64,000 nucleotides of DNA from an uncultured Desulfobulbaceae bacterium (GCA_945787325.1 CALZHP010000005.1:476-64475); one strand, 5' to 3'. Shown: positions 33,404-54,222, numbered from the stretch's first letter. Made by a program: numbers and translations. Notes: a model not told the origin generated them from the sequence alone.

Positions 33404-33417
33404 ACCTTGCTGAATAA

Positions 33418-33969
33418 ATGAAGAACTTATTTACCCAAAAAGGTTTTACTTTAATAGAGCTTTTGGTTGCCGTCCTGCTTTTAGCAATGATTACCACCAT
33501 GGTTTATTCGATATTGAATGTTGGAATCAGAGCCCAGGATAAAGGAGGAAAAAAGCTGCTTGCCATGGAAAGGCAATTAGGACTTCTAAACCTCCTCCAT
33601 CACCAGGTGAATAGTGCTTGGTACGATGTCATGAAAGATGAAATCACAATTTCTTCGGATGGTAATTACCTTAGAATCATAACCCGATATCCGTTAATTA
33701 ACAGATCCTCGGGTATTGTATTGGCTATGTATCGTTATGATGAGGGCGAACAGACACTCTATTACCTGGAAAAAAAGGACTACTATAATATCGATTATGA
33801 TGATGAATACTTACCGGCAATTGATGAGATGTACTTTCTTACTAAAACAGATGGATCATTTTTCATGGAATACGATTCTGAAGAAGGAAATTTATTGGTT
33901 GAATATTTGGAAAATCAGTATGTCTTGTTACCGCGTTGTGGCTTTAACCCTTATGTTATTAATAAATAA
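33418..33969 (+). CDS. Minor pseudopilin, GspJ-like
   Basis: N-terminal KG|FTLIELLVAVLLLAMITTMVYS prepilin motif. 183 aa. Confidence 0.6.
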   Translation: MKNLFTQKGFTLIELLVAVLLLAMITTMVYSILNVGIRAQDKGGKKLLAMERQLGLLNLLHHQVNSAWYDVMKDEITISSDGNYLRIITRYPLINRSSGIVLAMYRYDEGEQTLYYLEKKDYYNIDYDDEYLPAIDEMYFLTKTDGSFFMEYDSEEGNLLVEYLENQYVLLPRCGFNPYVINK

Positions 33970-33979
33970 ATTCAACTTT

Positions 33980-34336
33980 ATGGATTATGGTGGAATGTTC
34001 AATAAGATTAAATCTTTTCATTTAAATGTCAGGGATGAAAAACAGGGCTTTACACTGCTTGAAGTTCTGGTTGCGGTTACCATACTTGGCCTAGCATATG
34101 TAGCTATATTACAGAATTTTTCTGTTTCAACCAGGAACATAATCCGACTCGAAAAAAATATGACTAGTGTCCTGGAAAGATCAATAGCATTTGATCAGGC
34201 ACTTATGGACCCAGAGAGTGAAGAATATGATATAGCAGAATCTGAAACACCTTTTTTAGAAGGTTTGCTGTTTAACCTGGTGGTGATATCAGACAAACAG
34301 GGCGATTACTCTACCTTAAAACTTTCAAGAAGGTAG
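33980..34336 (+). CDS. Minor pseudopilin, GspI-like
   Basis: QG|FTLLEVLVAVTILGLAYVAILQNF prepilin motif. The track ORF 33716-34336 extends upstream into the previous gene; I trimmed it to the ATG at 33980 (alternative 33995). Confidence 0.55.
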   Translation: MDYGGMFNKIKSFHLNVRDEKQGFTLLEVLVAVTILGLAYVAILQNFSVSTRNIIRLEKNMTSVLERSIAFDQALMDPESEEYDIAESETPFLEGLLFNLVVISDKQGDYSTLKLSRR

Positions 34337-34349
34337 CTCTGTATTAATT

Positions 34350-35360
34350 ATGACAAATGAATTGAGCATAGTTTTTAATATGTGTTTTTTGTACGCAAAA
34401 AATGATCACAGGCAAAATGAAAAGGGCTTTGCGCTTATTATAGTAATTGTAGCTATGCTCCTTGCCAGCTTTCTTGCTTCACAACTGATTTTACAGGTAC
34501 GTACAAATTTGAAAATAGCCGATAATGTAAAAAAAAGAACTGCAACACGATACACATCAGAGGCTGGTATAAACCTTGGTCTTTTCAGACTTATGGACAG
34601 ACCATTGGATTTTTATAATGAAGAATATAAAATTTTTAATCTGGGCTATATTTATGAAACTGAAATATCCGGCAGAACAGTCAGTTATTATGCGGTTAAC
34701 GAAACCGGAAAAATTGATTTAAATAATGCGCCACGTAAACTGTTAGAACTTTATTTTGAATATCAAGGGCTCGATCCCGACCAAACGGCAACTTTAATTG
34801 ACTCCATACTGGATTGGAGAGATACTGATGATTTGAATAGATTAAACGGAGCTGAACAGGAATATTACCAGGGTTTAGAAGATCCTTATATTCCAAGAAA
34901 CGGCAATATTCGTGATCCTGGTGAGTTTTTTATGATAAAAGGGTCTGAACCACTATCTGGAAAAATTGTATCGGATGAAGTGTTTACGATACATAATAAG
35001 CAGAAGAAAATTAACTTTAACAGCCTGACTCCTTCTATGCTTGAATTTATAACGGGTGGAGATCAAGAAACAATAGATGCCTATAAAGAATCACAGGAGA
35101 CATATGGTAAGTTATCAGCTGTCCAGGCAAAGCTAATTCTGGGTGATGAAAGATTTAGCCTACTTAGCCCATATTTGATATATACGAACGGCCAAAACAG
35201 AAATTATTTTATTGTCGGTTTAAGCAAGTCGAGTTACTCTCTCAGTCCAACTGATGAAAAAATTGAAAAAAAACATGGACCTGGAACAAAAATAAGCGTT
35301 ATTATCGTTCTGGATAAGTATGGTTATAAATACTTATCCTGGAAGGAAAGTCTTATATGA
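34350..35360 (+). CDS. gspK: Minor pseudopilin GspK-like
   Basis: N-terminal hydrophobic KGFALIIVIVAMLLASFLAS. Motifs GKIDLNNAP, ILDWRDTDD and GAEQEYYQGL are typical of GspK. Confidence 0.7.
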   Translation: MTNELSIVFNMCFLYAKNDHRQNEKGFALIIVIVAMLLASFLASQLILQVRTNLKIADNVKKRTATRYTSEAGINLGLFRLMDRPLDFYNEEYKIFNLGYIYETEISGRTVSYYAVNETGKIDLNNAPRKLLELYFEYQGLDPDQTATLIDSILDWRDTDDLNRLNGAEQEYYQGLEDPYIPRNGNIRDPGEFFMIKGSEPLSGKIVSDEVFTIHNKQKKINFNSLTPSMLEFITGGDQETIDAYKESQETYGKLSAVQAKLILGDERFSLLSPYLIYTNGQNRNYFIVGLSKSSYSLSPTDEKIEKKHGPGTKISVIIVLDKYGYKYLSWKESLI

Positions 35361-36502
35361 AAGATGCTCTCGAAATAATCATTGAGAAAAACGGTGTTAA
35401 CATTTGTCACCCATTCTCTAATGATGCAGATATGTTTATTGATAATAAAAGTCTGCTGGGTGAAAGGTTGCTCGCCTATTGTTCAAGGAACAATATATCT
35501 TTTAGCAAGGTTTCATTATTTGTATCAGAAGAGCTGCTTTTTTTTAAATCTATAAATCTTCCTCTTAAAACACGTGATATAAAACAAGCTGTCGAATATC
35601 AACTTGATATGCTGATACCGTTTCCAAAAGAAACGATGCTCTTCAGTTATACTAACGAGCGGTTAAAAGAAAACTACAGGTTGAACCTTGTTGCTGTTAA
35701 TAAACAACTTGTGGAGCCTGTCGCACAGGAAGTGTCTAATGCCGGTTATATCATTACCGGCCTATTTCCAGAAAGCCAAAGATATATCAACCGCCTGGCA
35801 CAGAAGTCTAAATGGGCACTTGTTTTGCCTGGGAGATTTTCCAAGGTTTATACTTTTATAGGATCTCAACTTGAAGATCGTTTCCTGTGTGGCAAGGAGC
35901 CATCTTTTTCAGAACTGACTTCTCTTTGTAAATGTGACACAATTTATCATCAGCAACCCGTACAAGGCAGCAGGTACCAAAATGCCAGAGAACTCCTTGA
36001 GCAGAATCCAATACTTAAAGATTTCAACATGCTGCCGGAATCTTTCCGTCAACCAGACTATTTTAAAGTTGCAATTGTTGCTTTGATAGGTCTTAACCTC
36101 GCAGCATTATTAGTTCTGGGCGGGATAAAAGGATTTTCTTTAATACGAGCAGATAATAAAGTTGAAAACGCAATTAGCGAAATTATGCCACAAGTTAATG
36201 AGGTTAACAAATTGCGTTCCAAAGAAGATATGCTTTTAAAGAACCTGAACACTGTAGAAAGTATAAGTAAGAATCCAGACCTTATTGGTTTTTTAAAGAA
36301 CCTTTCCGAAAAGTTGCCTGAATCATCATATCTGGATCAGATGCGAATGGACAAGAAAAGCAGATCGTTTCATATTCAGGGTTATACAGAGAATGTTGGT
36401 GAATTGACTACTCAACTTCAATCCATAGGTGAGTCAAAGCTTAAATCAACAAGTCGCAGGAGAAACAGAACATACTTTCAGGTGGAGATCAGCCTGCCAT
36501 GA
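35357..36502 (+). CDS. GspL-like / PilM-PilN-type bitopic assembly protein
   Basis: The ~230-aa cytoplasmic part is followed by a single TM segment (FKVAIVALIGLNLAALLVLGGI) and a ~130-aa periplasmic part. Position between gspK and a GspM-like gene, with start overlapping gspK. The call rests on architecture, not on motifs. Confidence 0.5.
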   Translation: MKDALEIIIEKNGVNICHPFSNDADMFIDNKSLLGERLLAYCSRNNISFSKVSLFVSEELLFFKSINLPLKTRDIKQAVEYQLDMLIPFPKETMLFSYTNERLKENYRLNLVAVNKQLVEPVAQEVSNAGYIITGLFPESQRYINRLAQKSKWALVLPGRFSKVYTFIGSQLEDRFLCGKEPSFSELTSLCKCDTIYHQQPVQGSRYQNARELLEQNPILKDFNMLPESFRQPDYFKVAIVALIGLNLAALLVLGGIKGFSLIRADNKVENAISEIMPQVNEVNKLRSKEDMLLKNLNTVESISKNPDLIGFLKNLSEKLPESSYLDQMRMDKKSRSFHIQGYTENVGELTTQLQSIGESKLKSTSRRRNRTYFQVEISLP

Positions 36503-37056
36503 CATACATTCTACAAAGGATAAAGAGTTATAGCACAAGAACGCTTCTTATTGCTTTTGCCGTGTTATTGCTCGTTCTAAACATTGGTCGTTTTGCAATA
36601 AATTATTATTCAGATAAAAAAATCGAAGTCACTAGTAAGTTTGATCTTCTTGAAAAATACAGATCCGCAGCCAATACTCTTCCGGCTCTTAAAAAAAGAG
36701 TTGAGGTCTTAGAGAAACAGCAAAAAGAGAATGACACCTATTTTTTTGCAGGCAAATCCGGTGAAGAAGCGTCATCATCCATGCAGTTAAAACTTCAGGA
36801 AAATATAAGTTCATCAGGCCTGGTTCTTGAAACTCTACGACCCTCATTTAAAAAGGAAAGTTCCGAAGAAAAAAATATAGGAGAAGTGCAAATTAAAATA
36901 AGGCTTTCCGGCTCAATTGATGGTTTTGGCCGTTTTATATCGAGCATATATGAGTCCGATAAGCTTTTTCAAATTGAAAGTTTTACACTAAAGCCTTTCA
37001 AAGGATCAGGCCTAAAAATTTTCCTGGATTTGAAGGGTTATTATAAGATCTCATAA
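36499..37056 (+). CDS. GspM/PilO-like bitopic assembly protein
   Basis: 185 aa with an N-terminal TM segment (LLIAFAVLLLVLNIG), a coiled-coil-like segment and a ferredoxin-like-sized C-domain. Start overlaps the previous gene. Confidence 0.45.
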   Translation: MTYILQRIKSYSTRTLLIAFAVLLLVLNIGRFAINYYSDKKIEVTSKFDLLEKYRSAANTLPALKKRVEVLEKQQKENDTYFFAGKSGEEASSSMQLKLQENISSSGLVLETLRPSFKKESSEEKNIGEVQIKIRLSGSIDGFGRFISSIYESDKLFQIESFTLKPFKGSGLKIFLDLKGYYKIS

Positions 37057-37092
37057 TAACGGTTTGTTGAATTATTAATATTATTTGAAATT

Positions 37093-37869
37093 ATGTTACG
37101 AATTACATTAATCGCAGTTCTGGTATTATCTTTTTTCTATTTGGTGAAAGCCGGTACGATCAGTTGGCAATATGAATCAGATGAAAAAGAAATTATTTCA
37201 AAGAAAGCAGAATCTAACCAAAAGCTGTTAACTAAAAAGATAAGCTTCTATCCTGCTGTTTCAGACCCTTTACCAGATCTTAATGAAGGGTATCTCTTCA
37301 GTGAATCACGGCAAGCGGAGGTAGTCGATTCTGTAGGTATAACTGATTCTGAAGCTGCAGATAGTAATATTGATTTGGATGTAATTATGTATACCGGTTC
37401 AATAATAACACCAACTGCTCGTAAAGGTATAGTAACTTACCAGGTAAAGGAAAAAGTTGTTCGTCGAGGTTCAAGCCGTATCAGAGGAAAGGTAGCAATT
37501 ACTAAATCCGAAAACAAGCTACTTGTTCTGGGAGATTCTATTGACGGGTACGAGGTCAACGAGATTTTACCCGAAAAAATAGTATTTGTTAAAGGTGAAG
37601 ATACTGTTGAAAAACCTTTATACGATCCTGATAAGGTGAGAAAAACTCCGCCTCAACCAGCACGTAAAAAGAAAAAAGCAGCTACTGTTAAGAAACCCAC
37701 TGCTCCAGTTGTCAGAACTTCGCCAGGCACTAAAGCAACTGCAAAATCACCTGTTGACACAAAAAAAACTAGGCAACCTGGTATAATATCTCCAAGAATA
37801 CGCAGGCCACCCGCTGCTAGTCGCTTAGTCCCTTCGACTGGTCGACTACCCAGGCCTTCTGATCCATGA
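37093..37869 (+). CDS. T2SS-associated bitopic protein of unknown function with basic Pro-rich tail (possible GspC/PilP/GspN substitute)
   Basis: N-terminal TM segment (ITLIAVLVLSFFYLV). C-terminus reads KKKKAATVKKPTAPVVRTSPGTKATAKSPVDTKKTRQPGIISPRIRRPPAASR. It lies between the gspM-like gene and gspD. Confidence 0.35.
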   Translation: MLRITLIAVLVLSFFYLVKAGTISWQYESDEKEIISKKAESNQKLLTKKISFYPAVSDPLPDLNEGYLFSESRQAEVVDSVGITDSEAADSNIDLDVIMYTGSIITPTARKGIVTYQVKEKVVRRGSSRIRGKVAITKSENKLLVLGDSIDGYEVNEILPEKIVFVKGEDTVEKPLYDPDKVRKTPPQPARKKKKAATVKKPTAPVVRTSPGTKATAKSPVDTKKTRQPGIISPRIRRPPAASRLVPSTGRLPRPSDP

Positions 37870-37967
37870 TAAATATTGAAAATAATAGTCTTATATATAG
37901 AAATTTGTTAATTATTTTTTTATAAATCAATGATGATTCCAATATACATTTCTTTTGAAGGTGAATT

Positions 37968-40148
37968 ATGCGATTTAAAATAATCGTTTCAACACTTCTT
38001 TTCTTAAACATTTTTATCATTTCAGGATGCACTCCACCTAAATATTCTGACCAGAGAATGGTTAGCAAGGTTGATATTTCTGAGATAAGCAAAAAAATAT
38101 CAAGAGAAGATGCAAAAAGTGCCCTGTTAGATGTATCTGAGACAGTTGAAAAAGAGCCTCCGGGTCCGAAAATTAAAGATTTATCTGTAGAAACCTTTGA
38201 TAGAAATCCTTACCTCGACAACGTTTCAGTCCCAAAAAAAAGAAAATTACCTAAAGCTGTTGAAGGTGAAGGAATACTTCTTAACTTTGACAATGCAGAT
38301 ATATACGAAGTAATTCAGGTCATTGCTGAAACATTAGGCCTGAATTATATAATCGATCCCCAGGTTAAAGGTATTGTTAATATACGTTCCGGACAAAAGA
38401 TTCCTATGAATCAGCTATCTGTACTTTTTCGGAAAATCCTTAATATAAATGGATTGGATATCAGGCAGGAGGGAGAATACGAGTATATATTTGTTTCGAA
38501 TAAGCTTGCTTCACAAAACTTTTTTGGGCCTGGCCAGATGGGCGATCTCAAAAAATCACCCAGAATGGTTATCCAGGTATTGCCGTTGATGTACATGTCA
38601 TCGACAGAAGCCATGCAGCTTATCGAACCTTATATATCCGAACAGGGATCTGTCCACAATCTAACCAGCTCAAACACGCTTATAATTACTGATTTCGAAT
38701 CAAAAGTTATAGATTCATTAATGCTCCTTAGTCGTATTGACATTTCCCCTCTTTCATCTCTTAAGGTTCGCCTGGTTAAAATTGAAAACGCACCACTCTT
38801 TGACTTGCGTGATGAGTTACTTGAAATCCTTTCAGCACTTCAAATAAACAAAAAAGACCGTGATGCCATATCAGTAATTCCTCTTGAAAGAGTAAATTCT
38901 ATTTTATTGGTCAGCAATAACAGAAAGCTCATTGAGAGTGCAGAAGAGTGGGTAAGTGAACTTGATGTTGTTCCAACTCAGGGTAGAGATAACATATATA
39001 TATATAATGTAAGAAACTCAGTTGCATCAGATCTTGCTGATCTGGTTAATACTTTAATTAGTGACCAGGGGGATGGCAAAACATCCCAAACAAGAAGACC
39101 GGCACCTATTAGACCGGCTTCAGCAACAGAAGATTCGACAACACGGGCTGCTGCTCCTTCAACAGCTTCCAGAGGTGTCAGTTCTGGAGAAACATCTTCT
39201 TCTTTGCATTTTGCTGGTGAACCAGTTCTTATAGCAGATGACAGCCGCAACATTATTCTCTTGAGGGCTCTACCTGTTGATTATTCAAGGCTGGCCAAAC
39301 TTCTTGAACGGCTTGACAACTTACCGCGTCAGGTACTTATTGAAGTTTTGGTAGCCGAAGTGACACTAAGTGACGGGTGGGAGTTTGGTATTGAGTGGGC
39401 GTTGAAAGACAATAATCTAAATATAAATCATCATGATTACACCCAGACTTACAGTACAGAATTCGACCAAGTGGCTGCAGGTGCACTTGGAGGTTTCAGC
39501 TACAGTGCTATAAGTAATAGCGGTAGACTGATTACAGTTCTAAATGCACTTGCTGATAAAGATGATGTTTCAATACTTTCTTCTCCACAGGTGCTGGTAT
39601 TAAACAATGAAACAGCAACAGTTAATGTAGGTCAAGAAGTTCCTATTGTTACCACAGAAACCATTAATGACGATGTTAACACCAACAATACCAGAACCGT
39701 TCAATATCGTGATACTGGTATTATTTTAAATGTTACGCCAAGAATTAACTATGACGGTATTATTATACTTGATATCGACCAGCAAGTAAGTGAAGCATTG
39801 ACAGAAAACGTGACATCGGGCATAGACTCACCCGTTATCACATCCCGAGAACTCAAAACAAAACTTGCCGTAAAAGATGGACAATCCATTTTGATGGGAG
39901 GATTAATTGAAAGAAAAACTGAAAGTGGTGAAGTTGGGGTTCCATTGTTGAAGGACATACCTGTTTTGGGATGGCTTTTTAAATATCAAACCGAGACAAA
40001 CGATAAAACTGAACTGGTAATAATGATTACTCCATATGTTATTGAATCTGAAGATGTACTAGATCAGTACATAAGCCAGTTTAAATTAAAGATGGATGAG
40101 CTGCGGGGAGAGTTAACTGGCGCTGAAAGTCAAATTATGACCCAATAA
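37968..40148 (+). CDS. gspD: Type II secretion outer-membrane secretin (lipoprotein-type signal)
   Basis: Lipobox IISGC. N0 domain LNFDNADIYEVIQVIAETLGLNYIIDPQVKG. Secretin domain SSPQVLVLNNETATVNVGQEVPIVT...GIPLLKDIPVLGWLFK. Confidence 0.9.
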   Translation: MRFKIIVSTLLFLNIFIISGCTPPKYSDQRMVSKVDISEISKKISREDAKSALLDVSETVEKEPPGPKIKDLSVETFDRNPYLDNVSVPKKRKLPKAVEGEGILLNFDNADIYEVIQVIAETLGLNYIIDPQVKGIVNIRSGQKIPMNQLSVLFRKILNINGLDIRQEGEYEYIFVSNKLASQNFFGPGQMGDLKKSPRMVIQVLPLMYMSSTEAMQLIEPYISEQGSVHNLTSSNTLIITDFESKVIDSLMLLSRIDISPLSSLKVRLVKIENAPLFDLRDELLEILSALQINKKDRDAISVIPLERVNSILLVSNNRKLIESAEEWVSELDVVPTQGRDNIYIYNVRNSVASDLADLVNTLISDQGDGKTSQTRRPAPIRPASATEDSTTRAAAPSTASRGVSSGETSSSLHFAGEPVLIADDSRNIILLRALPVDYSRLAKLLERLDNLPRQVLIEVLVAEVTLSDGWEFGIEWALKDNNLNINHHDYTQTYSTEFDQVAAGALGGFSYSAISNSGRLITVLNALADKDDVSILSSPQVLVLNNETATVNVGQEVPIVTTETINDDVNTNNTRTVQYRDTGIILNVTPRINYDGIIILDIDQQVSEALTENVTSGIDSPVITSRELKTKLAVKDGQSILMGGLIERKTESGEVGVPLLKDIPVLGWLFKYQTETNDKTELVIMITPYVIESEDVLDQYISQFKLKMDELRGELTGAESQIMTQ

Positions 40149-41147: not shown

Positions 41148-41498
41148 ATGAGAATTGGAAAAAGTAAATTTTTATTTGGCGTTTTTACATTTTTAATAGC
41201 AGTGAGTTTCATCTGCATTTCTGTAGACAATGCAGATGCTCGTAGAAGACGGAGAAGAAGACCGCCACCACCAGTATCTGAAACTGTTGGTACAGTTGAA
41301 CAGGTAATTCAGAATGAAGAAATTACCATTGTTCAAATAAACAATGGTTCTACTTTATCCTGGGTGGCTACTCCTTCAATACAGGTTTCTGTAGGCGATA
41401 GTATTTCATTAAGACCCGGCAATAGAATTAACGGCCAACACATGAGGAGACTGAACAGAACATTTGATTCCATCATCTACTCTGATGGGCCAAATTGA
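41148..41498 (+). CDS. Small secreted protein, cytochrome-cassette partner (paralog of 46857-47201)
   Basis: RBS gaggga. Signal peptide, then RRRRRRPPPP, then an ~70-aa segment (WVATPSIQVSVGDSISLRPG...RRLNRTFDSIIYS). That segment aligns with WVAVPATDISVGDRVLFKPG...KSLNRTYSRIVLS in the paralog. Confidence 0.7.
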   Translation: MRIGKSKFLFGVFTFLIAVSFICISVDNADARRRRRRRPPPPVSETVGTVEQVIQNEEITIVQINNGSTLSWVATPSIQVSVGDSISLRPGNRINGQHMRRLNRTFDSIIYSDGPN

Positions 41499-41554: not shown

Positions 41555-44500
41555 ATGGGAAGAGAGGTATTTAAACATAGGCTGCTCTTCTTAACCCTTT
41601 TATGTTTTATAGGGTTATGGGGAGCTATTAACGCTGGCAACGCACAAGCTGTACTTACTGATGCGGATTGTGCCGTCTGCCATGCTGTTGTGGCAGCAGA
41701 TCCAATAACTCCACACCATAACCTTGCTTTTCAGCAAGGTAAATCATGTTCAGAGTGCCATAGGCAGGCTAACCCTGGTTGTACAGACTGCCATGGAGAC
41801 CCAATTGTAGACCCGGCATTTCATGAAAACGCTCACAATAAAATTAGCATAGCAACAGATTGTGCCGCCTGTCATGGAAGCCCGGACATTATTGAAGTTA
41901 CACACATGGAAAACTGCTTTGGTTGTCACGAGAGCACTGATCCAAATATCATCTCTATCATTGACAACGCCATTGCAGATCCCAATGCTTCGGTAAATTG
42001 TGAAACATGTCATGGCATGCTTGGCAACCCTCAACACGCCGACCCGGACCATAGCAGGATTAACATTTTTTCTGAATGTGCAACCTGCCATGGCGATCCT
42101 GAAATTGTTGGTATAACACATCTTGACAACTGTGCTACCTGTCATAGCAGCCCTCGACCAGAAGTACAAACAATTATCGATAATGCGGTTGCTGATCCCA
42201 CCCTGCAAGTTAACTGTGCTGATTGTCACGGTGTACTCGCGGAAGCTCATGCCGCTCCAGATCATACGGAAATTCAAATTTCCGCTGATTGTCAGGAGTG
42301 TCACGGCAGCCCGGATATTGTACCGGTAACCCACTTGAACAACTGTGCTACATGTCATGCCGCACCACAGGCAATTCAGGATATTATAGATGCTGCCCTG
42401 AATAATACTGCGGTTGCTACCTGTAATGCTTGTCATGGTATATTTAATGTACAACATCCTGAGCCTATACATGACAGCCTTTCCATCTTCCCGGAATGTG
42501 CTACATGTCATGGAGACAGTGATATAATTGGCGTAACTCATATGGTGCCTTCTACATATCCATGCGGGTACTGTCATGTCAGCACAGACCAGAATGTTAT
42601 TGATACGATCAGCGCTGGCGCTGCAGGTACACCTGTTAACTGTTCAGGTTGTCATGGTACGCTCGTAGTTGTTCATGCCGCACCGAATCATACTGAAATA
42701 CAGATTTCCGCCGACTGTCAGGCATGTCACGGCAGTGTTGATATCGTGCCGGTAACCCATAATAACAACTGTGCTACCTGCCATGCCGCACCACAGGCAA
42801 TCCAGGATATTATAGATGCTGCCCTGAATAATACTGCAGTAGCTACTTGTAACGCTTGTCATGGTACCTTCCAGGAACAGCACAATAATCCGCAGCACAA
42901 CCAGATTTCAGTATTTTCTGAGTGTGCCACCTGTCATGGGGATGCTGATATTGTCGGTGTAACCCATAGAGGCTTATGTGAATCATGCCATACAAGCACA
43001 AGTCAGAATGTTATTGATACAATCGCTGCTGGTGTAGCTGGTACTCCTGTAGATTGTTCTAACTGCCATGGAGTACTAGCAGAAGCACATGCAGCTCCTG
43101 ATCATACGGAAATTCAGATTTCCGCTGATTGTCAGGATTGCCACGGCAGTACTGACATTGTGCCGGTAACCCATAATAACAACTGTGCTACCTGCCATGC
43201 TGCACCGCAGGCAATACAAGCCATTATAGATGCCGCTCTTAACAACACGGCTACTGCAACTTGTAATGCCTGTCACGGAGTGTTCCAGGAAGTACATGCT
43301 AATGTAACTCACAGCAATGTTGAAATTTCACAGCCATGTACTACATGCCATGGTGTGAACCAGACTCCGATCGGTGTTCATAATGATGATTGTCTGCTGT
43401 GCCACACCAGCACAAGGCCAGATGTCATCCAGACCATTGAGGACGGTAAAGCCGGTCTACTGGTTGGTTGTGTAGACTGTCATGGTAACGTAGACACAAC
43501 TGGCCTGAACCATCTGCCGCAGCATGATACGGAAACGCCAGAGCCATTATGTCTCGATTGCCATGATCCGAACGTTGCTCGTGAGCATTTGAATATATAC
43601 CCCGACATTGTCGAAAACTGTTTCATTTGTCATGGTGATCCAATACTTCAATCTGTAATTGAAGCCGGCAGAAGCTCGAATCCGAATGCAGTAATCATTA
43701 CATGTGCAGACTGCCATATGTTCACAACATTTGAAACCCACAATGTTGCTCATACACAAGTTGTACTTCCGTCCGACGGCTGTATTGACTGCCACGATGC
43801 TAACACTGCTACTGAACATGTTGACGTGAGAGGATGGGGTTGTACAACCTGTCACAGCAGTACACGCCAGGATGTGCAGGATGCAATTGCCAGCGGTAAA
43901 GCTGGAAATCTTGTCAACTGTACAGATTGTCACCAAGGGCCACTTGATCATGCTGCACAGCATGACCACACATTCCTGAACGCACCGGAATGTGCAGACT
44001 GTCATAGTGCTAACGTCGTCACTGAACATGTTGACAACCAGGGCTTTGGCTGCGGTATCTGTCATGACGATCCGCTCCTGGTTGAATTCATTATTAACCC
44101 GGGTATGGCCGGTACCGACATATTCTGTCAGGATTGTCATATACCGCCAACCGATCACACCAATGCTCATAATATGACGGATGTAACTGATCCTGCCTGT
44201 CTTGAGTGTCATGATTCGGATGTATCTGTAGAGCATGTGACAAACAATGGACTCAGCTGTACTGTCTGTCATGGTAACCCTGCATACGATCCTATCATTG
44301 ATAGCGGCAAGGGAGACACAGGTACACTTGTAACCTGTGATGCCTGTCATGGTGCAAACGCAGGAGATCATGTGGCGGCTCATGATATGACCCGTCTCAA
44401 CACAGGCAACTGTGCGGACTGTCACAACGCAAATGTTGTTACTGAACATGTAACTGATCACCTGTTAAGCTGTTCAACATGCCATTCAAGCACAGATCCT

Positions 44501-45952
44501 GCAGTTCAGGCCGCAATTTCTGCTGGTCAGGCCGGCCAGGAAGTATTCTGTTCAGATTGTCATGTCGGAGCCGGTATGCATACCGAACAGCACGATATGG
44601 TCATTCTGCCTGAAGCATACTGCGCAGACTGCCATGCTGGCAATGTGGTTATAGAACATGTTGACAACCGTGGTCTCAGCTGTGATACATGTCATGGCGA
44701 TCCTGTCCTACAGGATATAATTCAGGCAGGAATGAATGGCACTGCGCTTGATTGTTTGGATTGTCATATGACTACAGATCATATTACAGCCCATGACAAT
44801 ACAGATGTACCATCTCCTGAATGTGCCGACTGTCATAACGGCAATGTTGCCACCGAGCACTTCACCGATGGCGGCCTGAGTTGTCTGGTATGTCATGGTA
44901 ACACAGCTTACGATGCAATCATTGCTGCCGGCCAGGCTGGGACACTTGTAACGTGTACTGATTGTCATGGAGTATCTGATCATAGGGATGCGCACGACAT
45001 GACGGTTGTACCGCAGCCTGTTTGCGCTGACTGCCATGATCCGAACGTAGTCGTTGAGCATGTTGATAACCGTGGTTTGGATTGCGGTGTATGCCATAAC
45101 GCAACCTATCAGAGTATCATTGATTCCGGTATAGCCGGCAACCAGGTTAGCTGCCTGGCCTGTCATGGTGATCCGGACCATCATACCAACTCTAATGAAG
45201 CTTTAACCGGTAATTGTACCCATTGTCATGCTCCACCAAACAGCGCAATGGACGCACCTGTTCAGGGAGCTTGTCGTCAATGTCACATAAACAGCAACGG
45301 CTATGTACAGACATTTAATGGTACTACTGTACATGCATTTAATACCAACGGTGCTATTCAGGACTTTGGTGCCTGTTTTGCCTGCCACTCACCGCAGCCT
45401 TACCATGGTAAGCCCAACACTTGGCCTGGCTTTTTCAATGAAAATGCCGTTGCCCCGGGTAGAGGATCTTTTAATATCTTCTTCAGTCAGTTTAATCCGA
45501 GTTGTGCACCTGATTGTGAAGGTACATTCTATGAAGATCTAAACGGATACGGAGAGGACGGTCAACCCCAACGAGATGGTGGCGATACTTGGCGCAATCC
45601 AGCTATTAACTTTGACTGGGTAACAATTGAGCACATGGGTAATATGTATGATGTACCTGCATTCTCAAGCAGCCCAATGAATGGCGGAGGAGGTGATCCT
45701 CCTACCATGAATGACTCCGTGGTTATCACCTATGCTGATTACTCTTCTTGGAGTGATAGACTGACAGTTTACGCTGAGAACGCACTCGATGACGGAGCTA
45801 ATCTGAGCTTAACCTGGTGTGGTGACTCTTATTCAATGAGTTACAGTTCGAATAATGACCGCTGGGAGAAGCAAGTTGATAATGTAAACGACTGTGGTGA
45901 TGTCACTGTAACATCTGACATGGGTGGTAGTGACACTGCAACACCCAATTAA
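41555..45952 (+). CDS. Giant multihaem c-type cytochrome (about 54 CxxCH motifs, 1465 aa), secreted
   Basis: RBS gggagg. Signal peptide ending AQA. My hand count finds 54 CxxCH motifs between residues ~38 and ~1240. A haem-free ~225-aa C-terminal region follows. Confidence 0.9.
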   Translation: MGREVFKHRLLFLTLLCFIGLWGAINAGNAQAVLTDADCAVCHAVVAADPITPHHNLAFQQGKSCSECHRQANPGCTDCHGDPIVDPAFHENAHNKISIATDCAACHGSPDIIEVTHMENCFGCHESTDPNIISIIDNAIADPNASVNCETCHGMLGNPQHADPDHSRINIFSECATCHGDPEIVGITHLDNCATCHSSPRPEVQTIIDNAVADPTLQVNCADCHGVLAEAHAAPDHTEIQISADCQECHGSPDIVPVTHLNNCATCHAAPQAIQDIIDAALNNTAVATCNACHGIFNVQHPEPIHDSLSIFPECATCHGDSDIIGVTHMVPSTYPCGYCHVSTDQNVIDTISAGAAGTPVNCSGCHGTLVVVHAAPNHTEIQISADCQACHGSVDIVPVTHNNNCATCHAAPQAIQDIIDAALNNTAVATCNACHGTFQEQHNNPQHNQISVFSECATCHGDADIVGVTHRGLCESCHTSTSQNVIDTIAAGVAGTPVDCSNCHGVLAEAHAAPDHTEIQISADCQDCHGSTDIVPVTHNNNCATCHAAPQAIQAIIDAALNNTATATCNACHGVFQEVHANVTHSNVEISQPCTTCHGVNQTPIGVHNDDCLLCHTSTRPDVIQTIEDGKAGLLVGCVDCHGNVDTTGLNHLPQHDTETPEPLCLDCHDPNVAREHLNIYPDIVENCFICHGDPILQSVIEAGRSSNPNAVIITCADCHMFTTFETHNVAHTQVVLPSDGCIDCHDANTATEHVDVRGWGCTTCHSSTRQDVQDAIASGKAGNLVNCTDCHQGPLDHAAQHDHTFLNAPECADCHSANVVTEHVDNQGFGCGICHDDPLLVEFIINPGMAGTDIFCQDCHIPPTDHTNAHNMTDVTDPACLECHDSDVSVEHVTNNGLSCTVCHGNPAYDPIIDSGKGDTGTLVTCDACHGANAGDHVAAHDMTRLNTGNCADCHNANVVTEHVTDHLLSCSTCHSSTDPAVQAAISAGQAGQEVFCSDCHVGAGMHTEQHDMVILPEAYCADCHAGNVVIEHVDNRGLSCDTCHGDPVLQDIIQAGMNGTALDCLDCHMTTDHITAHDNTDVPSPECADCHNGNVATEHFTDGGLSCLVCHGNTAYDAIIAAGQAGTLVTCTDCHGVSDHRDAHDMTVVPQPVCADCHDPNVVVEHVDNRGLDCGVCHNATYQSIIDSGIAGNQVSCLACHGDPDHHTNSNEALTGNCTHCHAPPNSAMDAPVQGACRQCHINSNGYVQTFNGTTVHAFNTNGAIQDFGACFACHSPQPYHGKPNTWPGFFNENAVAPGRGSFNIFFSQFNPSCAPDCEGTFYEDLNGYGEDGQPQRDGGDTWRNPAINFDWVTIEHMGNMYDVPAFSSSPMNGGGGDPPTMNDSVVITYADYSSWSDRLTVYAENALDDGANLSLTWCGDSYSMSYSSNNDRWEKQVDNVNDCGDVTVTSDMGGSDTATPN
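42230..43290 (+). repeat. Three tandem near-identical ~414-426-nt coding repeats inside cytochrome 1 (six CxxCH per unit)
   Basis: Units start at about 42230, 42656 and 43070. Long stretches are nearly identical at DNA level. One example is ccggtaacccataataacaactgtgctacctgccatgc.gcacc.caggcaat.ca.g..attatagatgc, which encodes HAAPDHTEIQISADCQxCHGSxDIVPVTHxNNCATCHAAPQAIQxIIDAALNNTAxATCNACHG. Confidence 0.8.
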
Positions 45953-45991
45953 TATAAACCAACTGCTTTATTATAAGCAGTACAAACCAAA

Positions 45992-46030
45992 AGGGGCGGC
46001 TTCGTGAATCGAGGCCGCCTCTTTTTTTTA
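45992..46030 (+). terminator. Rho-independent terminator of cassette 1
   Basis: Stem aggggcggcttcg / cgaggccgcctct (with G-U pairs) and loop tgaat, followed by ttttttt. Confidence 0.8.
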
Positions 46031-46270
46031 TCTATTGTATGCATGGATTAAAAGAACCTTCTTCCTGTTTACAGAATTAGATATCTTTGAAGTACTTATT
46101 CAGTTTCCTAAAAATGAAGCATATACAACCTTGATCATTTAGTAAGATTACCGCTTCCTCCTAAATAAATTTCCAGTAAATTTGCAGGATATTCTCAAAG
46201 TGAAAATACATTCTTATTCACTGTACAAACTTAACCAAATTGTAATTTATGTAATTTCTGTTTATTATCA

Positions 46271-46769: not shown

Positions 46770-46856
46770 TGTTTATGTTTTAATTGCTGTTATACGGACT
46801 TTATAGTTCGTAATTGCGAACAAAAAGGTAAAATTAAAGATTAGGTGGAGCTGAGT

Positions 46857-47201
46857 ATGACCAAATTGAATTATAAACAAAAACTCTTTATTGCTATCCT
46901 GTCTGTTTTCATCTTTACACTCTTTGGATTTTTAAATTTCAAAACTTCTCCATCAATCGCAGCCGAAATACAAATGGATACAGTTTCTGGGTCCGTTGTT
47001 GAAGCACACAATGTTGGAGACCGACTACTTGTATTAATTAAAAACAGAAAGGACATGTCCAAGAAGTGGGTTGCCGTTCCAGCAACTGATATTTCTGTTG
47101 GTGACAGGGTCTTATTTAAGCCCGGTATAGTTATGAATAATTTCAATATAAAAAGTTTAAACAGAACTTATTCAAGAATTGTATTATCACCCGGATCTTG
47201 A
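46857..47201 (+). CDS. Small secreted protein, cytochrome-cassette partner (paralog of 41148-41498)
   Basis: I chose the ATG at 46857 because aggtggag lies 8 nt upstream; the track starts at the GTG at 46845. Signal/TM segment LFIAILSVFIFTLFGFL. The C-terminal segment is homologous to the cassette 1 partner. Confidence 0.7.
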   Translation: MTKLNYKQKLFIAILSVFIFTLFGFLNFKTSPSIAAEIQMDTVSGSVVEAHNVGDRLLVLIKNRKDMSKKWVAVPATDISVGDRVLFKPGIVMNNFNIKSLNRTYSRIVLSPGS

Positions 47202-47269
47202 TCCGAGTCACTAATATAGGTTGAAGCATGAACGCAACTATTAAGGAAGGGAAAATCGGGAGGTATCAA

Positions 47270-50200
47270 ATGGGGATTATTACATTAAATACACGGTTAT
47301 TTCTGATAACCATGTTTGCCGCTGCCGCGCTTTGTTTTATCTATACAGGTAACGCCATGGCATTGACATCGGCAGATTGTGCAGAATGCCATGCACCAAT
47401 TGTCGCTGACCCAATAAGTCCACATCATAATCTTGCAACTCAACAGGCCCTTTCGTGTTCAGCATGTCACCGTATGGCAAGTCCAACCTGTACTGACTGC
47501 CATGGAGACCCAATAATTGACCCGGCATTTCATGAAAATATTCATTCGAACATCAGCATCGCTCCTGACTGTTCCTCATGCCATAGCAACCCTGATATTA
47601 TCCCCGTCACTCACTCTAATAACTGTACAGTTTGCCATGACAGTACTAACCAGGTTGTTATTGATACCATAGCAGCCGGTTCGCAAGGTACTGCCGTCAA
47701 CTGTGAAAACTGTCACGGTGCCCTTTCTGAAGTACATACCCCAACACACGCTCAAATCAGTATCGCAACCGATTGTGCCGGCTGTCACGGTGACCCCGCC
47801 ATAGTACCTGTTACTCATAGCGATAACTGTGCAACATGTCATAACAGTACTGACCAGGCAGTAATTGATACCATTACTGCAGGTTTCAATGGCACACAGG
47901 TCGACTGTAACAATTGTCATATAAGCATTAACCATACAGCGCAACACGATCAAACCTTTGTACCTGAAGCGATTTGCGCCGATTGTCATGACGGTAATGT
48001 TGCGGTAGAACATACAGTTAATCACTCTTCAACTTGTACTGCTTGTCATAATGACCCATTGCTTGCTTCAATAATTGATAGTGGTAAAGCGGGCAATGCT
48101 GTAGTTTGCACGGACTGTCATACAGCTACAACACTTGCTTCTCATAATTCTCTTCATGACAAAACAGTACTTCCATCAGATGGATGTATTGAATGTCATG
48201 ATGCCAATGTAGCAGTTGAACATGTTGATAACAGGTCAATAGGCTGTACAGACTGCCATAACAGTACTCGACAAGAAGTACTGGATGCAATCGCCAACGG
48301 TATCTCTGGAATGACAGTTAACTGTTCAGATTGTCACCTTGGACCTCTTGATCATCAGGCAGCTCATGATATGACAAGGACAGACGATGTTTCCTGTCAG
48401 GACTGTCATAACCAGAATGTTGTAACAGAGCATGTCGACAACCAGGGCATTAGTTGCAGCAGCTGTCATGATGACCCAATGATACAAACTATCATTGCTT
48501 CAGGTGTGGCTGGCAACATTGTAGTGTGTGCTGACTGCCACATTATGTCCGACCACACAAACGCCCATAATAATACAGATGTAACGGATTCTGCCTGTCT
48601 CGAATGTCACGATCCGGATGTATCTGTTGAACACGTTGCCAACGGCGGCCTCAGCTGCCTTGTTTGCCATGGCAACACGACTTACGATGCGATCATTGAC
48701 AGCGGTAAAGGTATAGCAGGTACACTCGTAACCTGTGATGCATGTCACACAAATGCCGGTGATCATACAGCGGCACATGATATGACAAGTCTTAACTCAG
48801 GCGACTGTGCCGAGTGTCATAATGCCAATGTAGTTACAGAGCATGTTGATGTACGACTGTTAAGCTGTTCAACATGCCACTCTAGCACAGATGCTACGGT
48901 TCGGGCTGTAATAGAATCCGGCCAGAACGGTCAGGAAGTATTTTGTTCAGATTGTCATGTGGGTGCCGGAATGCACTCAGATGAGCATGATATGGTAGAC
49001 GTACCAGATTCTTTATGTGCAGACTGCCATAATGGAAATGTTGTAATTGAGCACGTTGATAATCGAGCTCTTACCTGTAATACATGTCACGGTGATCCTG
49101 AACTTCAGAGAATCATTCAGTCCGGCATGAATGGAACTGCTCTTGATTGTTACGATTGTCATATGACAACTGATCATGCAGCTGAACACGACAATACAGA
49201 CGTTCCATCAGCGGAATGTGCAGAATGTCATGACGGCAATGTTACAGTAGAGCATATTGACAACCGCGGCTTAAGTTGTCTTGTCTGTCACGGCAGTGCT
49301 ACGTACGACTCAATCATTGCAGCGGGACAGACTGGTACACAAGTAACATGTACAGACTGTCACGGTGCAGCAGATCATAGTGCGGCCCATGACATGACTG
49401 TTGTACCGCAAGCGGTATGTGCTGATTGTCATGATCCGAATGTAGTAGTAGAACACGTTGATAACCGAGGTTTCGATTGCGGAATCTGTCATAACAGCTC
49501 ATATCAAGGCATAATTGATTCAGGTATTGCCGGCAATCAGGTTAGTTGTTTAAACTGCCATAATACTCCGGATCATCATGCAAACTCGAATGACGCAAAA
49601 TCAGGGAACTGTACACTGTGTCATCAAGTAACGAGTAGTGCAATGGATGCTCCTGTTATTGGCGCCTGTCGCGAATGTCATATAAATAATCAGGGATATG
49701 TCCTTCAGAAGAACCTGTCGAGTGTGTTAACTAGCCATAGAATTAACACCCAGGGCGATATCCAGGATTTTGGTGCCTGTATTACCTGCCACAACTACAG
49801 CAGCAATTCTGCTCCTTATGTCCAACCTTATCACGCTAAGCCGAGCAGCAAGCCGCGATACTATATCAACAACATTACCGAGGCTCCGGGCCGTGGTTCC
49901 TTCAACCTCTTCTACGACCAATGGCATAGAAATAGTGGCGAAGACAACGAAGGCAAGGAACCAGGATGTGGTGAAGATAGCAGCTGTAACGGTAGCAGCT
50001 GGCGCAATCCAGAAATCAGTTTCCAGTGGTTAACTATAGATTACAATGGAAATCTGTATGATGTACCGGCTTTCTCTGATAGTGGTAATAGACCGGACGG
50101 AGGAGGTCCTCCTGTTGATCCGCCTACCGGTGGTGGCTGTGAAATTGATGCGAATGGGACCTATGTTGAATCCGAAAATTATAATGCCCTTGGCAACAAC

Positions 50201-50917
50201 TGGTCCGTACAAAGTGGCGACGGAAACGGCAATGGTTATCTGTATGCTACAGCAAACAGCACTAGCTCTGTTTCCGGTAGCCCGGCTGAATACGACCTTA
50301 CCTTTACCGAGTCCGGCACCTACTACATCTGGTTCCGTGGTAAAGATAATGGAAGTTCAGATGACAACTCACTCTGGTATGGAGTTGATGGTTCCATGAA
50401 AGGCAACGCTACAACTCCTGCAACAAACAATAACTGGAGTTGGACAAGGACCCCTCATAATACTGGTCCAAATCCAACCCGCATAACCATAAACAGCGCC
50501 GGCACATATACCGTTACTATATGGGCCAGGGAGAATGGCTTCCGATTCGACGGCTTCTATGTAACCAAGAGCAGCAGCTCAATATCCGGTTCCATTCCCA
50601 GCGGTGCTGACATTGTTGATCCCACCAACTGCGGTGGCGGAGGTGAACCACCTGTAGATCCACCTCCTGCTAACGATGACTCCGTAAACATCACCTATGC
50701 AGATTATTCATCATGGAGAGATAGGTTAAGGGTCTATGCTGAGAATGACCTCGATGATGAAGCGAATCTGAGCTTGACCTGGTGTGGAGAATCCTATTCG
50801 ATGAGTTATATTTCGAGTAATGACCGCTGGGAGAAGGAAGTCAACAACGTCAACGACTGTGGTGATGTTACGGTAACTTCAGATAGGGGCGGCAGTGATA
50901 CTGCAACGGCCAACTAA
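47270..50917 (+). CDS. Giant multihaem c-type cytochrome (about 36 CxxCH motifs) with lectin/CBM-like beta-sandwich insertion, secreted
   Basis: I preferred the ATG at 47270 (gggagg RBS; MGIITLNTRLFLITMF... parallels the cytochrome 1 N-terminus). The track start is 47228. My hand count gives 36 CxxCH motifs. Long stretches are collinear with the C-terminal two thirds of cytochrome 1. Confidence 0.9.
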   Translation: MGIITLNTRLFLITMFAAAALCFIYTGNAMALTSADCAECHAPIVADPISPHHNLATQQALSCSACHRMASPTCTDCHGDPIIDPAFHENIHSNISIAPDCSSCHSNPDIIPVTHSNNCTVCHDSTNQVVIDTIAAGSQGTAVNCENCHGALSEVHTPTHAQISIATDCAGCHGDPAIVPVTHSDNCATCHNSTDQAVIDTITAGFNGTQVDCNNCHISINHTAQHDQTFVPEAICADCHDGNVAVEHTVNHSSTCTACHNDPLLASIIDSGKAGNAVVCTDCHTATTLASHNSLHDKTVLPSDGCIECHDANVAVEHVDNRSIGCTDCHNSTRQEVLDAIANGISGMTVNCSDCHLGPLDHQAAHDMTRTDDVSCQDCHNQNVVTEHVDNQGISCSSCHDDPMIQTIIASGVAGNIVVCADCHIMSDHTNAHNNTDVTDSACLECHDPDVSVEHVANGGLSCLVCHGNTTYDAIIDSGKGIAGTLVTCDACHTNAGDHTAAHDMTSLNSGDCAECHNANVVTEHVDVRLLSCSTCHSSTDATVRAVIESGQNGQEVFCSDCHVGAGMHSDEHDMVDVPDSLCADCHNGNVVIEHVDNRALTCNTCHGDPELQRIIQSGMNGTALDCYDCHMTTDHAAEHDNTDVPSAECAECHDGNVTVEHIDNRGLSCLVCHGSATYDSIIAAGQTGTQVTCTDCHGAADHSAAHDMTVVPQAVCADCHDPNVVVEHVDNRGFDCGICHNSSYQGIIDSGIAGNQVSCLNCHNTPDHHANSNDAKSGNCTLCHQVTSSAMDAPVIGACRECHINNQGYVLQKNLSSVLTSHRINTQGDIQDFGACITCHNYSSNSAPYVQPYHAKPSSKPRYYINNITEAPGRGSFNLFYDQWHRNSGEDNEGKEPGCGEDSSCNGSSWRNPEISFQWLTIDYNGNLYDVPAFSDSGNRPDGGGPPVDPPTGGGCEIDANGTYVESENYNALGNNWSVQSGDGNGNGYLYATANSTSSVSGSPAEYDLTFTESGTYYIWFRGKDNGSSDDNSLWYGVDGSMKGNATTPATNNNWSWTRTPHNTGPNPTRITINSAGTYTVTIWARENGFRFDGFYVTKSSSSISGSIPSGADIVDPTNCGGGGEPPVDPPPANDDSVNITYADYSSWRDRLRVYAENDLDDEANLSLTWCGESYSMSYISSNDRWEKEVNNVNDCGDVTVTSDRGGSDTATAN

Positions 50918-51917: not shown

Positions 51918-51934
51918 TACCAGGAATATATTTA

Positions 51935-52135: not shown

Positions 52136-52136
52136 C

Positions 52137-54206: not shown

Positions 54207-54222
54207 ATATTCTGATAATCAC

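What the first reader, a model, noticed from the sequence alone, without database searches (positions are those of the whole stretch)
41555..45952. Single 1465-aa polypeptide with about 54 CxxCH haem-binding motifs
Seen: my hand count finds 54 CxxCH motifs between residues ~38 and ~1240. That is roughly one haem site per 22-23 residues. A Sec-type signal peptide ends in AQA.

Established: CxxCH is the covalent attachment site of c-type haem. Characterised nanowire cytochromes carry far fewer haems per chain (OmcS has 6, OmcZ has 8). Proteins with more than 50 sites are rare.

Inference: if the haems stack linearly at a rise comparable to that in OmcS-type filaments, one molecule could span tens of nm. 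It would act as a single-chain nanowire without needing polymerisation.
Basis: partly seen in the sequence, partly recalled or inferred. Interest (0 to 1): 0.8.

Follow-up and report, generated by a model that had tools for sequence, protein, structure and literature searches.

The report
Secreted 54-haem modular cytochrome gene
This is a real, intact gene for a very long protein that carries 54 iron-containing haem groups in a chain and is probably exported to carry electrons outside the cell; such giant cytochromes are already known, so the more interesting part is its conserved pairing with a small partner protein and a secretion machine.

Summary
ORF 41555-45952(+) is intact and encodes 1465 aa with exactly 54 CxxCH motifs (shuffles give 0.6). 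The last motif is at residue 1274, not about 1240.

The protein has a Sec signal peptide, a tri-haem head, and 16 tandem tri-haem modules of about 69 aa (8 type A, 8 type B). A tri-haem cap and a 185-aa non-haem tail follow. Each module keeps three CxxCH and three further conserved histidines, which fits all-bis-His electron-transfer haems. The repeats are old (71-79% DNA identity, dN/dS 0.1-0.2), so assembly collapse is unlikely.

The rarity claim is not supported. Of the 120 best homologues, 75 have at least 50 motifs, and one has 100. The single-chain "haem wire" idea is already published (GSU1996; Soares et al. 2024).

The gene follows a small exported OB-fold protein at a 56-nt gap, with a strong terminator after it, so co-transcription is likely. 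The pair lies directly downstream of a complete type II secretion cluster. That order recurs in at least four independent loci, most or all Desulfobulbales-type. A 36-haem paralogue with its own small partner follows.

Most likely function: a T2SS-exported extracellular electron conduit, 40-70 nm long if extended. Verdict: new member of a known kind.

The parts
41555..45952 (+). Gene for the 1465-aa, 54-CxxCH cytochrome c. The mature protein is about 1433 aa, about 185 kDa with haems, pI 4.6.
41555..41650 (+). Sec signal peptide (residues 1-32, ending AQA|V).
   Evidence: Read directly from the sequence; no predictor was run.
41837..43525 (+). Eight type-A tri-haem modules (residues 95-657; CxxCH spacing about 18/26/25). 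This stretch includes a tandem two-module unit of 414-426 nt.
43526..45190 (+). Eight type-B tri-haem modules (residues 658-1212; spacing about 20/25/24). The AF2 model of residues 735-1014 has pLDDT 87.
45191..45391 (+). C-terminal tri-haem cap (residues 1213-1279). It lies within the Pfam MtrC/MtrF domain II/IV-like match (residues 1133-1281).
45392..45949 (+). Non-haem tail (residues 1280-1465). It contains a conserved PGRGxFNxF segment and a terminal domain of about 90 aa that is 78% identical to the paralogue's. It has no Pfam match.
41148..41498 (+). Small exported partner protein (116 aa): a signal peptide, an Arg/Pro tract and a 75-aa OB-fold domain. It ends 56 nt upstream of the cytochrome gene.
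45989..46035 (+). Intrinsic terminator (16-bp stem with 9 GC pairs, then a T run) that closes the bicistronic unit.
29279..40148 (.). Type II secretion cluster. gspG is divergent (29279-29758, - strand). gspE, F, H, I/J-like, K, L-like, M, C-like and D follow on the + strand (30026-40148).
46845..47201 (+). Second small OB-fold partner protein (118 aa).
47228..50917 (+). Paralogous 1229-aa cytochrome with 36 CxxCH: 2 type-A and 8 type-B modules, and a longer non-haem tail with an extra beta-rich insert.

Best explanation
The gene encodes a genuine giant modular c-type cytochrome.

Proposed route (inferred):
1. The apoprotein is exported by Sec.
2. Haem is attached covalently at 54 CxxCH sites in the periplasm.
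3. The folded rod is pushed across the outer membrane by the type II secretion system encoded directly upstream.
4. Outside the cell it works as a single-polypeptide haem chain that carries respiratory electrons over tens of nm to minerals, other cells or the matrix.

The chain consists of 16 tandem tri-haem modules of about 69 aa, which arose by duplication. Each module supplies three CxxCH and three conserved distal histidines. All haems are therefore expected to be bis-His, low-spin electron-transfer centres with no catalytic site. A small exported OB-fold protein encoded just upstream, probably in the same transcript, is a conserved partner whose role is unknown (escort, secretion adaptor or anchor).

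Shown here: the motif count, the modular architecture, the conserved His pattern, purifying selection, the tight gene layout with a terminator after the cytochrome gene, and the conserved synteny. Inferred: co-transcription, haem loading, export by the T2SS, a linear haem path and the length.
For: - Motifs and chance control. Pfam Cytochrome_C7 E 1e-69 over 21 stretches, and Cytochrom_c3_2.
- Module alignment of 22 modules: C9 C12 H13 H21 C29 C32 H33 C55 C58 H59 H65 are invariant, and H69 is present in at least 90%. The haem region has 57 non-motif His and 13 Met.
- The module profile matches the MtrA decahaem wire in the PDB (6r2q_A, E 9e-9) and then MtrF, NrfH and NrfB. The best NCBIfam match is the DmsE-family decahaem model (E 4e-39).
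- The AF2 model of four modules is confident (pLDDT 87, pTM 0.65).
- dN/dS is 0.09-0.22 with saturated synonymous sites.
- An RBS precedes the start codon and a strong terminator follows the gene.
- The order T2SS, small protein, giant cytochrome recurs in L004, L005/L024 and L023 as well as in the window. GspD is 56-64% identical across these loci, while the cytochromes are only 32-40% identical.
- The small-protein plus giant-cytochrome pair also occurs in L001/L002 and L006.
- Homologues carry PKD, TIG, Big and discoidin domains, which are typical of surface proteins.
- Precedent: the Shewanella T2SS translocates MtrC and OmcA (PMC1974784).
- Length scaling from GSU1996 (12 nm for 12 haems, PMC10138318) and a 27-haem model (350 A, PMC11492766).
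Against: - There is no expression or haem-loading data.
- No model coordinates were available, so linearity and haem-haem distances were not measured.
- Foldseek found no PDB relative of the 4-module model.
- The T2SS is a widely conserved Desulfobulbales locus. Two orthologous T2SS loci (L025, L026) lack the cytochrome. Adjacency could therefore partly reflect shared ancestry rather than function.
- Two small-protein plus cytochrome pairs sit after nuo genes, with no T2SS within 10 kb.
- Large relatives in L003, L007 and L020 lack both the small protein and the T2SS.
- No outer-membrane porin-cytochrome conduit that could feed an external wire was seen among the annotated window genes (about 6-59 kb).
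- There is no hematite-binding [ST]P[ST] motif.
Confidence: 0.55

Rival explanations
1. It is a periplasmic electron store (a 'capacitor'). The protein stays in the periplasm and buffers up to 54 electrons when external acceptors are absent, as proposed for the monomeric Geobacter cytochromes GSU1996, GSU0592 and GSU2210.
For: It has the same general design: a single chain of tandem tri-haem domains with a Sec signal and no membrane anchor. PMC10138318 describes those proteins as periplasmic nanowires of haems that act as capacitors. Some large relatives have no T2SS nearby.
Against: A rod of 40-70 nm exceeds the periplasmic width of about 17 nm quoted in PMC11492766. T2SS synteny recurs in at least four loci. 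The non-haem C-terminal domains are of the kind found on surface proteins, and homologues carry PKD, TIG and discoidin domains. Sequence similarity to GSU1996 is weak (E 0.075). The His-Met haem found in each GSU1996 domain is absent here.
Confidence: 0.2
2. It is a surface or matrix redox scaffold rather than a straight wire. The protein is exported but is flexible or folded back. It would form a haem-rich coat or biofilm matrix component that widens the reactive surface instead of spanning distance. It may be held by its C-terminal domain or by the OB-fold partner.
For: The AF2 pTM is only 0.65 for four modules, which allows for flexibility between modules. Soares et al. discuss the flexibility of such modular chains (PMC11492766). 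The conserved C-terminal beta-rich domain and the paralogue's extra GH115_C-like insert suggest binding functions.
Against: Nothing here excludes it, and it overlaps with the best explanation. It differs only in geometry, which was not measurable.
Confidence: 0.2
3. It is an assembly artefact or a decaying pseudogene in a repetitive region.
For: The gene is internally repetitive (TRF period 426, 2.4 copies). The exact protein is known from a single contig.
Against: The repeat copies are only 71-79% identical at the DNA level. The frame is open for 4.4 kb. dN/dS is 0.09-0.22. All cysteines and histidines of all 22 aligned modules are conserved. Independent homologues of similar or larger size exist in many assemblies.
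Confidence: 0.03

Closest known systems
Giant modular multihaem cytochromes of Thermodesulfobacteriota. Examples are the G. sulfurreducens 27-haem PKD lipoprotein cytochrome AAR36279 and the 'long nanowire' clusters of Soares et al. 2024, BMC Genomics (PMC11492766).
   Same: They are true homologues: P0018/P0121 score E 2e-91, with 37% identity over 39% of the query. They share the Pfam signature (PF14522, PF14537, PF22113), tandem haem modules, a Sec signal and non-haem surface-type C-terminal domains. The published prediction is a single-chain wire longer than the periplasm.
   Different: This protein has twice as many haems. It lacks a lipobox and PKD domains. It has a different C-terminal domain. 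It is paired with an OB-fold protein and a T2SS, neither of which is present at the Geobacter locus.
GSU1996, GSU0592 and GSU2210: polymers of c7-type tri-haem domains ('nanowires of haems') from G. sulfurreducens (PDB 3OV0).
   Same: They are single polypeptides made of tandem tri-haem domains of about 70-80 aa. The haems form one continuous chain (12 haems in 12 nm).
   Different: Sequence similarity is weak (3ov0 E 0.075, c7 3h34 E 0.09). The CxxCH spacing differs. There is no His-Met haem per domain here; all three distal ligands are conserved His. Those proteins are periplasmic, whereas this one has a secretion-system context.
MtrA/DmsE-family periplasmic decahaem cytochromes, and MtrC/MtrF/OmcA, of Shewanella.
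   Same: MtrA is the best solved-structure match for the module profile (6r2q_A, E 9e-9). The best NCBIfam match is TIGR03508. Residues 1133-1281 match Pfam MtrC/MtrF domain II/IV. All are bis-His haem wires. MtrC and OmcA are T2SS substrates (PMC1974784).
   Different: The TIGR03508 score is below the family cutoff (134.5 against 192.2). This protein has 54 haems rather than 10. No MtrB-type porin gene is adjacent. It is not a lipoprotein.
Polymerising cytochrome filaments OmcS (6 haems), OmcE (4) and OmcZ (8).
   Same: The proposed function is the same: long-range extracellular electron transfer along stacked haems.
   Different: No sequence similarity was detected in either PDB sequence search. 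Those filaments gain length by polymerisation with inter-subunit ligation. Here the length is encoded in one chain and is fixed.

Membership tests
Multihaem cytochrome c (Pfam clan; PF14522 Cytochrome_C7, PF14537 Cytochrom_c3_2) | Multiple CxxCH haem-attachment motifs, with a score above the Pfam gathering threshold. | tested here: met
   54 CxxCH. PF14522 scores 230.7 bits against a cutoff of 24.8. PF14537 scores 132.5 bits against a cutoff of 25.
Multihaem cytochrome c | Export to the periplasm, where haem is attached (signal peptide). | tested here: met
   The N-terminal n/h/c region ends in AQA. This was read by eye; no predictor was run.
Multihaem cytochrome c | Covalent haem actually attached at the motifs. 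| not testable with these tools
   This needs haem staining or mass spectrometry.
c7-domain polymers (GSU1996, GSU0592, GSU2210) | Tandem tri-haem domains of about 70-80 aa. | tested here: met
   16 modules of 64-77 aa, each with three CxxCH.
c7-domain polymers (GSU1996, GSU0592, GSU2210) | One His-Met coordinated haem per domain (PMC10138318). | tested here: not met
   The modules have no conserved Met. Three conserved distal His (H21, H65, H69) serve three haems.
c7-domain polymers (GSU1996, GSU0592, GSU2210) | Significant sequence or fold similarity to c7 or GSU1996. | tested here: inconclusive
   The module profile against PDB sequences gives 3ov0 E 0.075 and 3h34 E 0.09. Foldseek found no PDB match at all for the 4-module model.
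MtrA/DmsE decahaem family (TIGR03508) | Score above the NCBIfam cutoff; ten haems; an adjacent MtrB-type porin. | tested here: not met
   134.5 bits against a cutoff of 192.2. The protein has 54 haems. No porin family appeared among the neighbours scanned with Pfam. The modules are nevertheless homologous to MtrA (E 9e-9).
OmcS/OmcE/OmcZ polymerising nanowire cytochromes | Sequence similarity to the filament subunits; 4-8 haems per subunit. | tested here: not met
   None of these chains appears among the PDB sequence hits at E up to 1 or 10.
Type II secretion system (neighbouring cluster) | Core components GspD secretin, GspE ATPase, GspF platform, pseudopilins G/H/I/J/K, and GspL/M/C. | tested here: met
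   Pfam finds Secretin, T2SSE, T2SSF, N_methyl and T2SSK. NCBIfam finds GspH, GspK and GspM, with weak GspC. A GspG homologue at 29279-29758 is 54-72% identical to PF08334-annotated genes in L023 and L024. GspL is assigned by position and by the PF05134/PilN hits of its orthologues.
T2SS substrate | Secretion that depends on the T2SS. | not testable with these tools
   Only synteny supports this, in at least four loci. T2SS substrates have no sequence signal.

The most novel reading that the evidence does not exclude
The small OB-fold protein and the giant cytochrome form a dedicated cargo cassette of a Desulfobulbales type II secretion system. The OB-fold protein would be a previously unrecognised escort, adaptor or anchor needed to export or position a single-chain haem wire of about 185 kDa and more than 40 nm. 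This would be a route to long-range extracellular electron transfer that needs neither polymerisation nor a porin-cytochrome complex.
Probability: 0.3. Interest if true: 0.65.

Novelty: new member of a known kind. Interest (0 to 1): 0.4.

Why it matters
Giant single-chain cytochromes are a third way, besides polymerised filaments and porin-cytochrome complexes, in which microbes might move electrons over tens of nm. None with more than 12 haems has been characterised experimentally.

This locus offers a well-defined case for testing. The gene is intact and under purifying selection. Its module grammar is clear. A paralogue of different length (36 haems against 54) sits next to it. A small partner gene is conserved with it. 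A complete secretion system lies alongside.

If the T2SS and OB-fold link is functional, it addresses a question raised by Soares et al. 2024: how a protein longer than the periplasm is matured and exported.

The cytochrome itself is not a new kind of object.

Tried and rejected
- Foldseek of the confident 4-module AF2 model against the PDB gave no usable match. Structural similarity to GSU1996 or MtrA could therefore be neither shown nor excluded. Haem-free, low-secondary-structure models are probably poorly handled by 3Di.
The genome-contig scan found only relatives at 51% identity or less, all Desulfobulbaceae, Desulfobulbales, Desulfuromonadales or Thermodesulfobacteriota MAGs.
- The word-index search made the small protein look almost unique, with 8 hits. 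The exhaustive profile search showed that its OB-fold domain is widespread: 2505 representatives, mostly proteins with 2-3 domains. I therefore dropped 'unique family' in favour of 'diverged single-domain branch'.
- Pfam and NCBIfam give nothing for the small protein or for the C-terminal tail. A PDB profile search for the small protein gave only chance-level hits.
The scan with the C-terminal alignment returned 6 loci, five of them under 5 kb.
- Rfam found nothing for the repeated intergenic element.
- The hematite-binding motif search was negative.
- The assembly-artefact reading was rejected on repeat divergence and dN/dS.
Full report
**Observation.** The window has one long ORF at 41555..45952 on the + strand. 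It starts with ATG, encodes 1465 aa and has no internal stop.
- An exact regex gives 54 CxxCH and no CxxxCH, CxxxxCH or CxxCK.
- The first motif is at residue 39.
- One thousand shuffles of the same residues give a mean of 0.64 motifs and a maximum of 4.
- The N-terminus has a positively charged start, a hydrophobic core and AQA before the mature end. This fits a Sec signal peptide and does not fit a lipobox (read from the sequence).
- The mature protein is about 151 kDa without haem and about 185 kDa with 54 haems, with pI 4.6.

**Anatomy.** Splitting the chain at every third motif shows a regular grammar:
- a tri-haem head (residues 39-80);
- eight type-A modules (residues 95-657; CxxCH spacing about 18/26/25);
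- eight type-B modules (residues 658-1212; spacing about 20/25/24);
- a tri-haem cap (residues 1213-1279);
- a non-haem tail (residues 1280-1465).

I aligned 22 modules from this protein and its neighbouring paralogue. All nine Cys/His of the three CxxCH are invariant, as are two further His (H21, H65). A third (H69) is present in at least 90% of modules. No Met is conserved. Together with 57 non-motif His and only 13 Met in the haem region, this fits three bis-His haems per module. That is an electron-transfer chain without an open catalytic site. This last step is an inference from the conservation pattern.

**Is it an artefact?** TRF finds a 426-nt period with 2.4 copies and 75% matches. 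Repeat families are 71-79% identical. Between the internal two-module units, synonymous sites are saturated (pS 0.65-0.87) while pN is 0.15-0.41, giving dN/dS of 0.09-0.22. Against the paralogue, pN is 0.17 and pS is 0.70. The duplications are therefore old and the sequence is under purifying selection. Collapse or expansion by a short-read assembler is unlikely.

**Family.**
- Pfam gives Cytochrome_C7 (E 1e-69, 21 stretches), Cytochrom_c3_2, and an MtrC/MtrF domain II/IV match at residues 1133-1281.
- The best NCBIfam match is the DmsE-family decahaem model, below its cutoff (134.5 against 192.2 bits).
- The module profile searched against all PDB sequences matches MtrA best (6r2q_A, E 9e-9), then MtrF, NrfH and NrfB. 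GSU1996 (3ov0) and c7 (3h34) reach only E 0.075-0.09.
- An AF2 model of four type-B modules is confident (pLDDT 87, pTM 0.65). Foldseek found no PDB neighbour for it, so fold-level comparison failed.

I conclude that the modules belong to the general multihaem clan and lie nearer to MtrA/NrfB-type wires than to c7. The protein resembles the c7 polymers in design but lacks their His-Met haem, which is cited in PMC10138318.

**How unusual is the haem count?** The homologue search returned 331 proteins. Of the best 120, 75 have at least 50 CxxCH, 50 have at least 70, and the maximum is 100.

The literature already covers this ground. Soares et al. 2024 (PMC11492766) report Desulfuromonadia cytochromes with up to 87 motifs, with peaks at 27, 35 and 56. 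[quoted passage not shown] GSU1996 (12 haems, 12 nm) and GSU2210 (27 haems) have long been called 'nanowires of hemes' (PMC10138318).

Scaling from those published values gives roughly 40-70 nm for 54 haems if the chain is extended (inference).

**Context: the added value of this second look.**
- *Transcription unit.* 56 nt upstream lies a 116-aa gene (41148-41498). A GGGAGG ribosome-binding site precedes the cytochrome start codon. A strong terminator (16-bp stem plus T run) follows at 45989. This layout fits a bicistronic unit.
- *Second unit.* A second unit follows: a 118-aa homologue (46845-47201; E 6e-12) and a 1229-aa, 36-haem paralogue (47228-50917). The paralogue has 2 type-A and 8 type-B modules and a longer tail.
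- *The small protein.* It has a signal peptide and a 75-aa domain. AF2 models the domain at pLDDT 92.6, and Foldseek places it among OB-folds (Stn1, RPA, AspRS N-domain; TMq 0.65-0.70). It has no Pfam or NCBIfam match. An exhaustive profile search finds 2505 representative proteins with this domain, mostly proteins with 2-3 domains. The partner is therefore a diverged single-domain branch of a large uncharacterised periplasmic OB-fold family.
- *The secretion system.* Upstream lies a complete type II secretion cluster: divergent gspG, then gspE, F, H, I/J, K, L, M, C and D.

**Conservation of the context.**
- *From the cytochrome side.* L004 (Desulfobulbales MAG, 74 haems) and L005 (74 haems) show the same order: T2SS, then small protein, then giant cytochrome. 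L001/L002 (76 haems) and L006 (52 haems in one ORF, with a further 18 in an overlapping second ORF) have the small protein and cytochrome after nuo genes, with no T2SS within 10 kb. L003, L007 and L020, and the 20-34-haem relatives, have neither.
- *From the T2SS side.* GspD orthologues at 51-64% identity are common in Desulfobulbaceae and Desulfurivibrionaceae MAGs. Of four contigs examined, L023 and L024 carry the small protein plus a giant cytochrome directly after gspD. L024 has 79 haems in 2113 aa, and it also has the ThiS and beta-helix genes seen downstream in the window. L025 and L026 do not carry the pair.

The cassette therefore sits behind this T2SS in at least four independent loci, but it is not an obligate part of the T2SS locus. 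Because these loci are related, shared ancestry contributes to the pattern. The low cytochrome identity (32-40%) against the higher T2SS identity (56-78%) shows that the arrangement has persisted over considerable divergence. The Shewanella T2SS exports MtrC and OmcA (PMC1974784), which makes the cargo reading biologically plausible.

**Organism.** The exact protein is known from one NCBI contig of 65 kb, but the record could not be retrieved. Three things point to a Desulfobulbales-type member of the Thermodesulfobacteriota:
- the Wood-Ljungdahl genes in the window;
- GC of about 0.39;
- the names attached to the nearest cytochrome, T2SS and C-terminal-domain relatives.

**Verdict.** The protein is a member, with a new haem count and domain combination, of a known and already discussed class of giant modular cytochromes.

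The best-supported mechanism is a Sec-exported, T2SS-secreted extracellular haem chain (confidence about 0.55). A periplasmic capacitor and a non-linear surface scaffold remain as live rivals. The part worth following up is the conserved OB-fold partner and its T2SS association, which I did not find described in the papers searched.

Noticed in passing
window 40255-40425 (- strand) and 46270-46440 (+ strand): A structured element of about 170 nt is present twice in inverted orientation. The copies flank the small-gene plus 54-haem unit and are 78% identical over 144 nt. Each folds with a 12-15-bp 5' hairpin (z -3.6 and -4.8). There is no Rfam match and no copy in any related locus. It could be a remnant of the duplication or inversion that created the two cassettes, a mobile-element end, or a regulatory RNA.
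   Followed up: partly
window 46845-50917: A second cassette holds a 118-aa OB-fold partner and a 36-haem paralogue (2 type-A and 8 type-B modules). The paralogue's tail carries an extra beta-rich insert of about 170 aa with a weak GH115_C-like Pfam hit (E 2e-4). The two neighbours differ mainly in the number of type-A modules (8 against 2), which makes them a natural length variant.
   Followed up: partly
window 41148-41498; P0135-P0290: The 75-aa OB-fold domain of the small partner belongs to a large family of exported proteins with no Pfam or NCBIfam model: 2505 representatives at E up to 1e-3. Most carry 2-3 tandem copies, often joined by linkers with M-P-x-G-H-P-K motifs. Their function is unknown.
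   Followed up: partly
window 41220-41270: Small partner 1 has an RRRRRRRPPPP tract immediately after its predicted signal-peptide cleavage site. Relatives have Arg/Lys-rich stretches at the same place and, in some, Asp/Arg-rich C-terminal tails.
   Followed up: no
window 51117-58389; L024:19580-22139: Downstream lie a ThiS-ThiF fusion and then four probable exported proteins. Three carry CarboxypepD_reg and right-handed beta-helix/NosD-like domains (725, 852 and 240 aa), and one (288 aa) has no Pfam match. The ThiS gene, the first beta-helix gene and the 288-aa gene are conserved in the same position in L024. They may be further cargo or partners of the same system.
   Followed up: partly
window 12821-15433 (- strand): Within the Wood-Ljungdahl cluster (CODH/ACS, FolD), one 870-aa ORF combines an N-terminal MTHFR domain with a C-terminal CdhD (corrinoid Fe-S delta subunit) domain. 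This appears to be a gene fusion.
   Followed up: no
L005:9493-15588 compared with L024:13115-19453: L005 and L024 give the same GspD identity to the window (60.864%) and may represent the same lineage. In L005 the cytochrome is split from its C-terminal domain, whereas in L024 one 2113-aa frame carries 79 CxxCH. The L024 locus contains 41 N. This suggests a frameshift or an assembly difference in one of the two records.
   Followed up: no
P0026-P0101: A large group of 1.8-2.5-kaa homologues from Saprospiraceae, Lewinellaceae and other Bacteroidota MAGs carries 70-100 CxxCH at a strikingly constant 25 aa per haem. The Desulfuromonadia-focused survey that I read (PMC11492766) would not include this group.
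   Followed up: no
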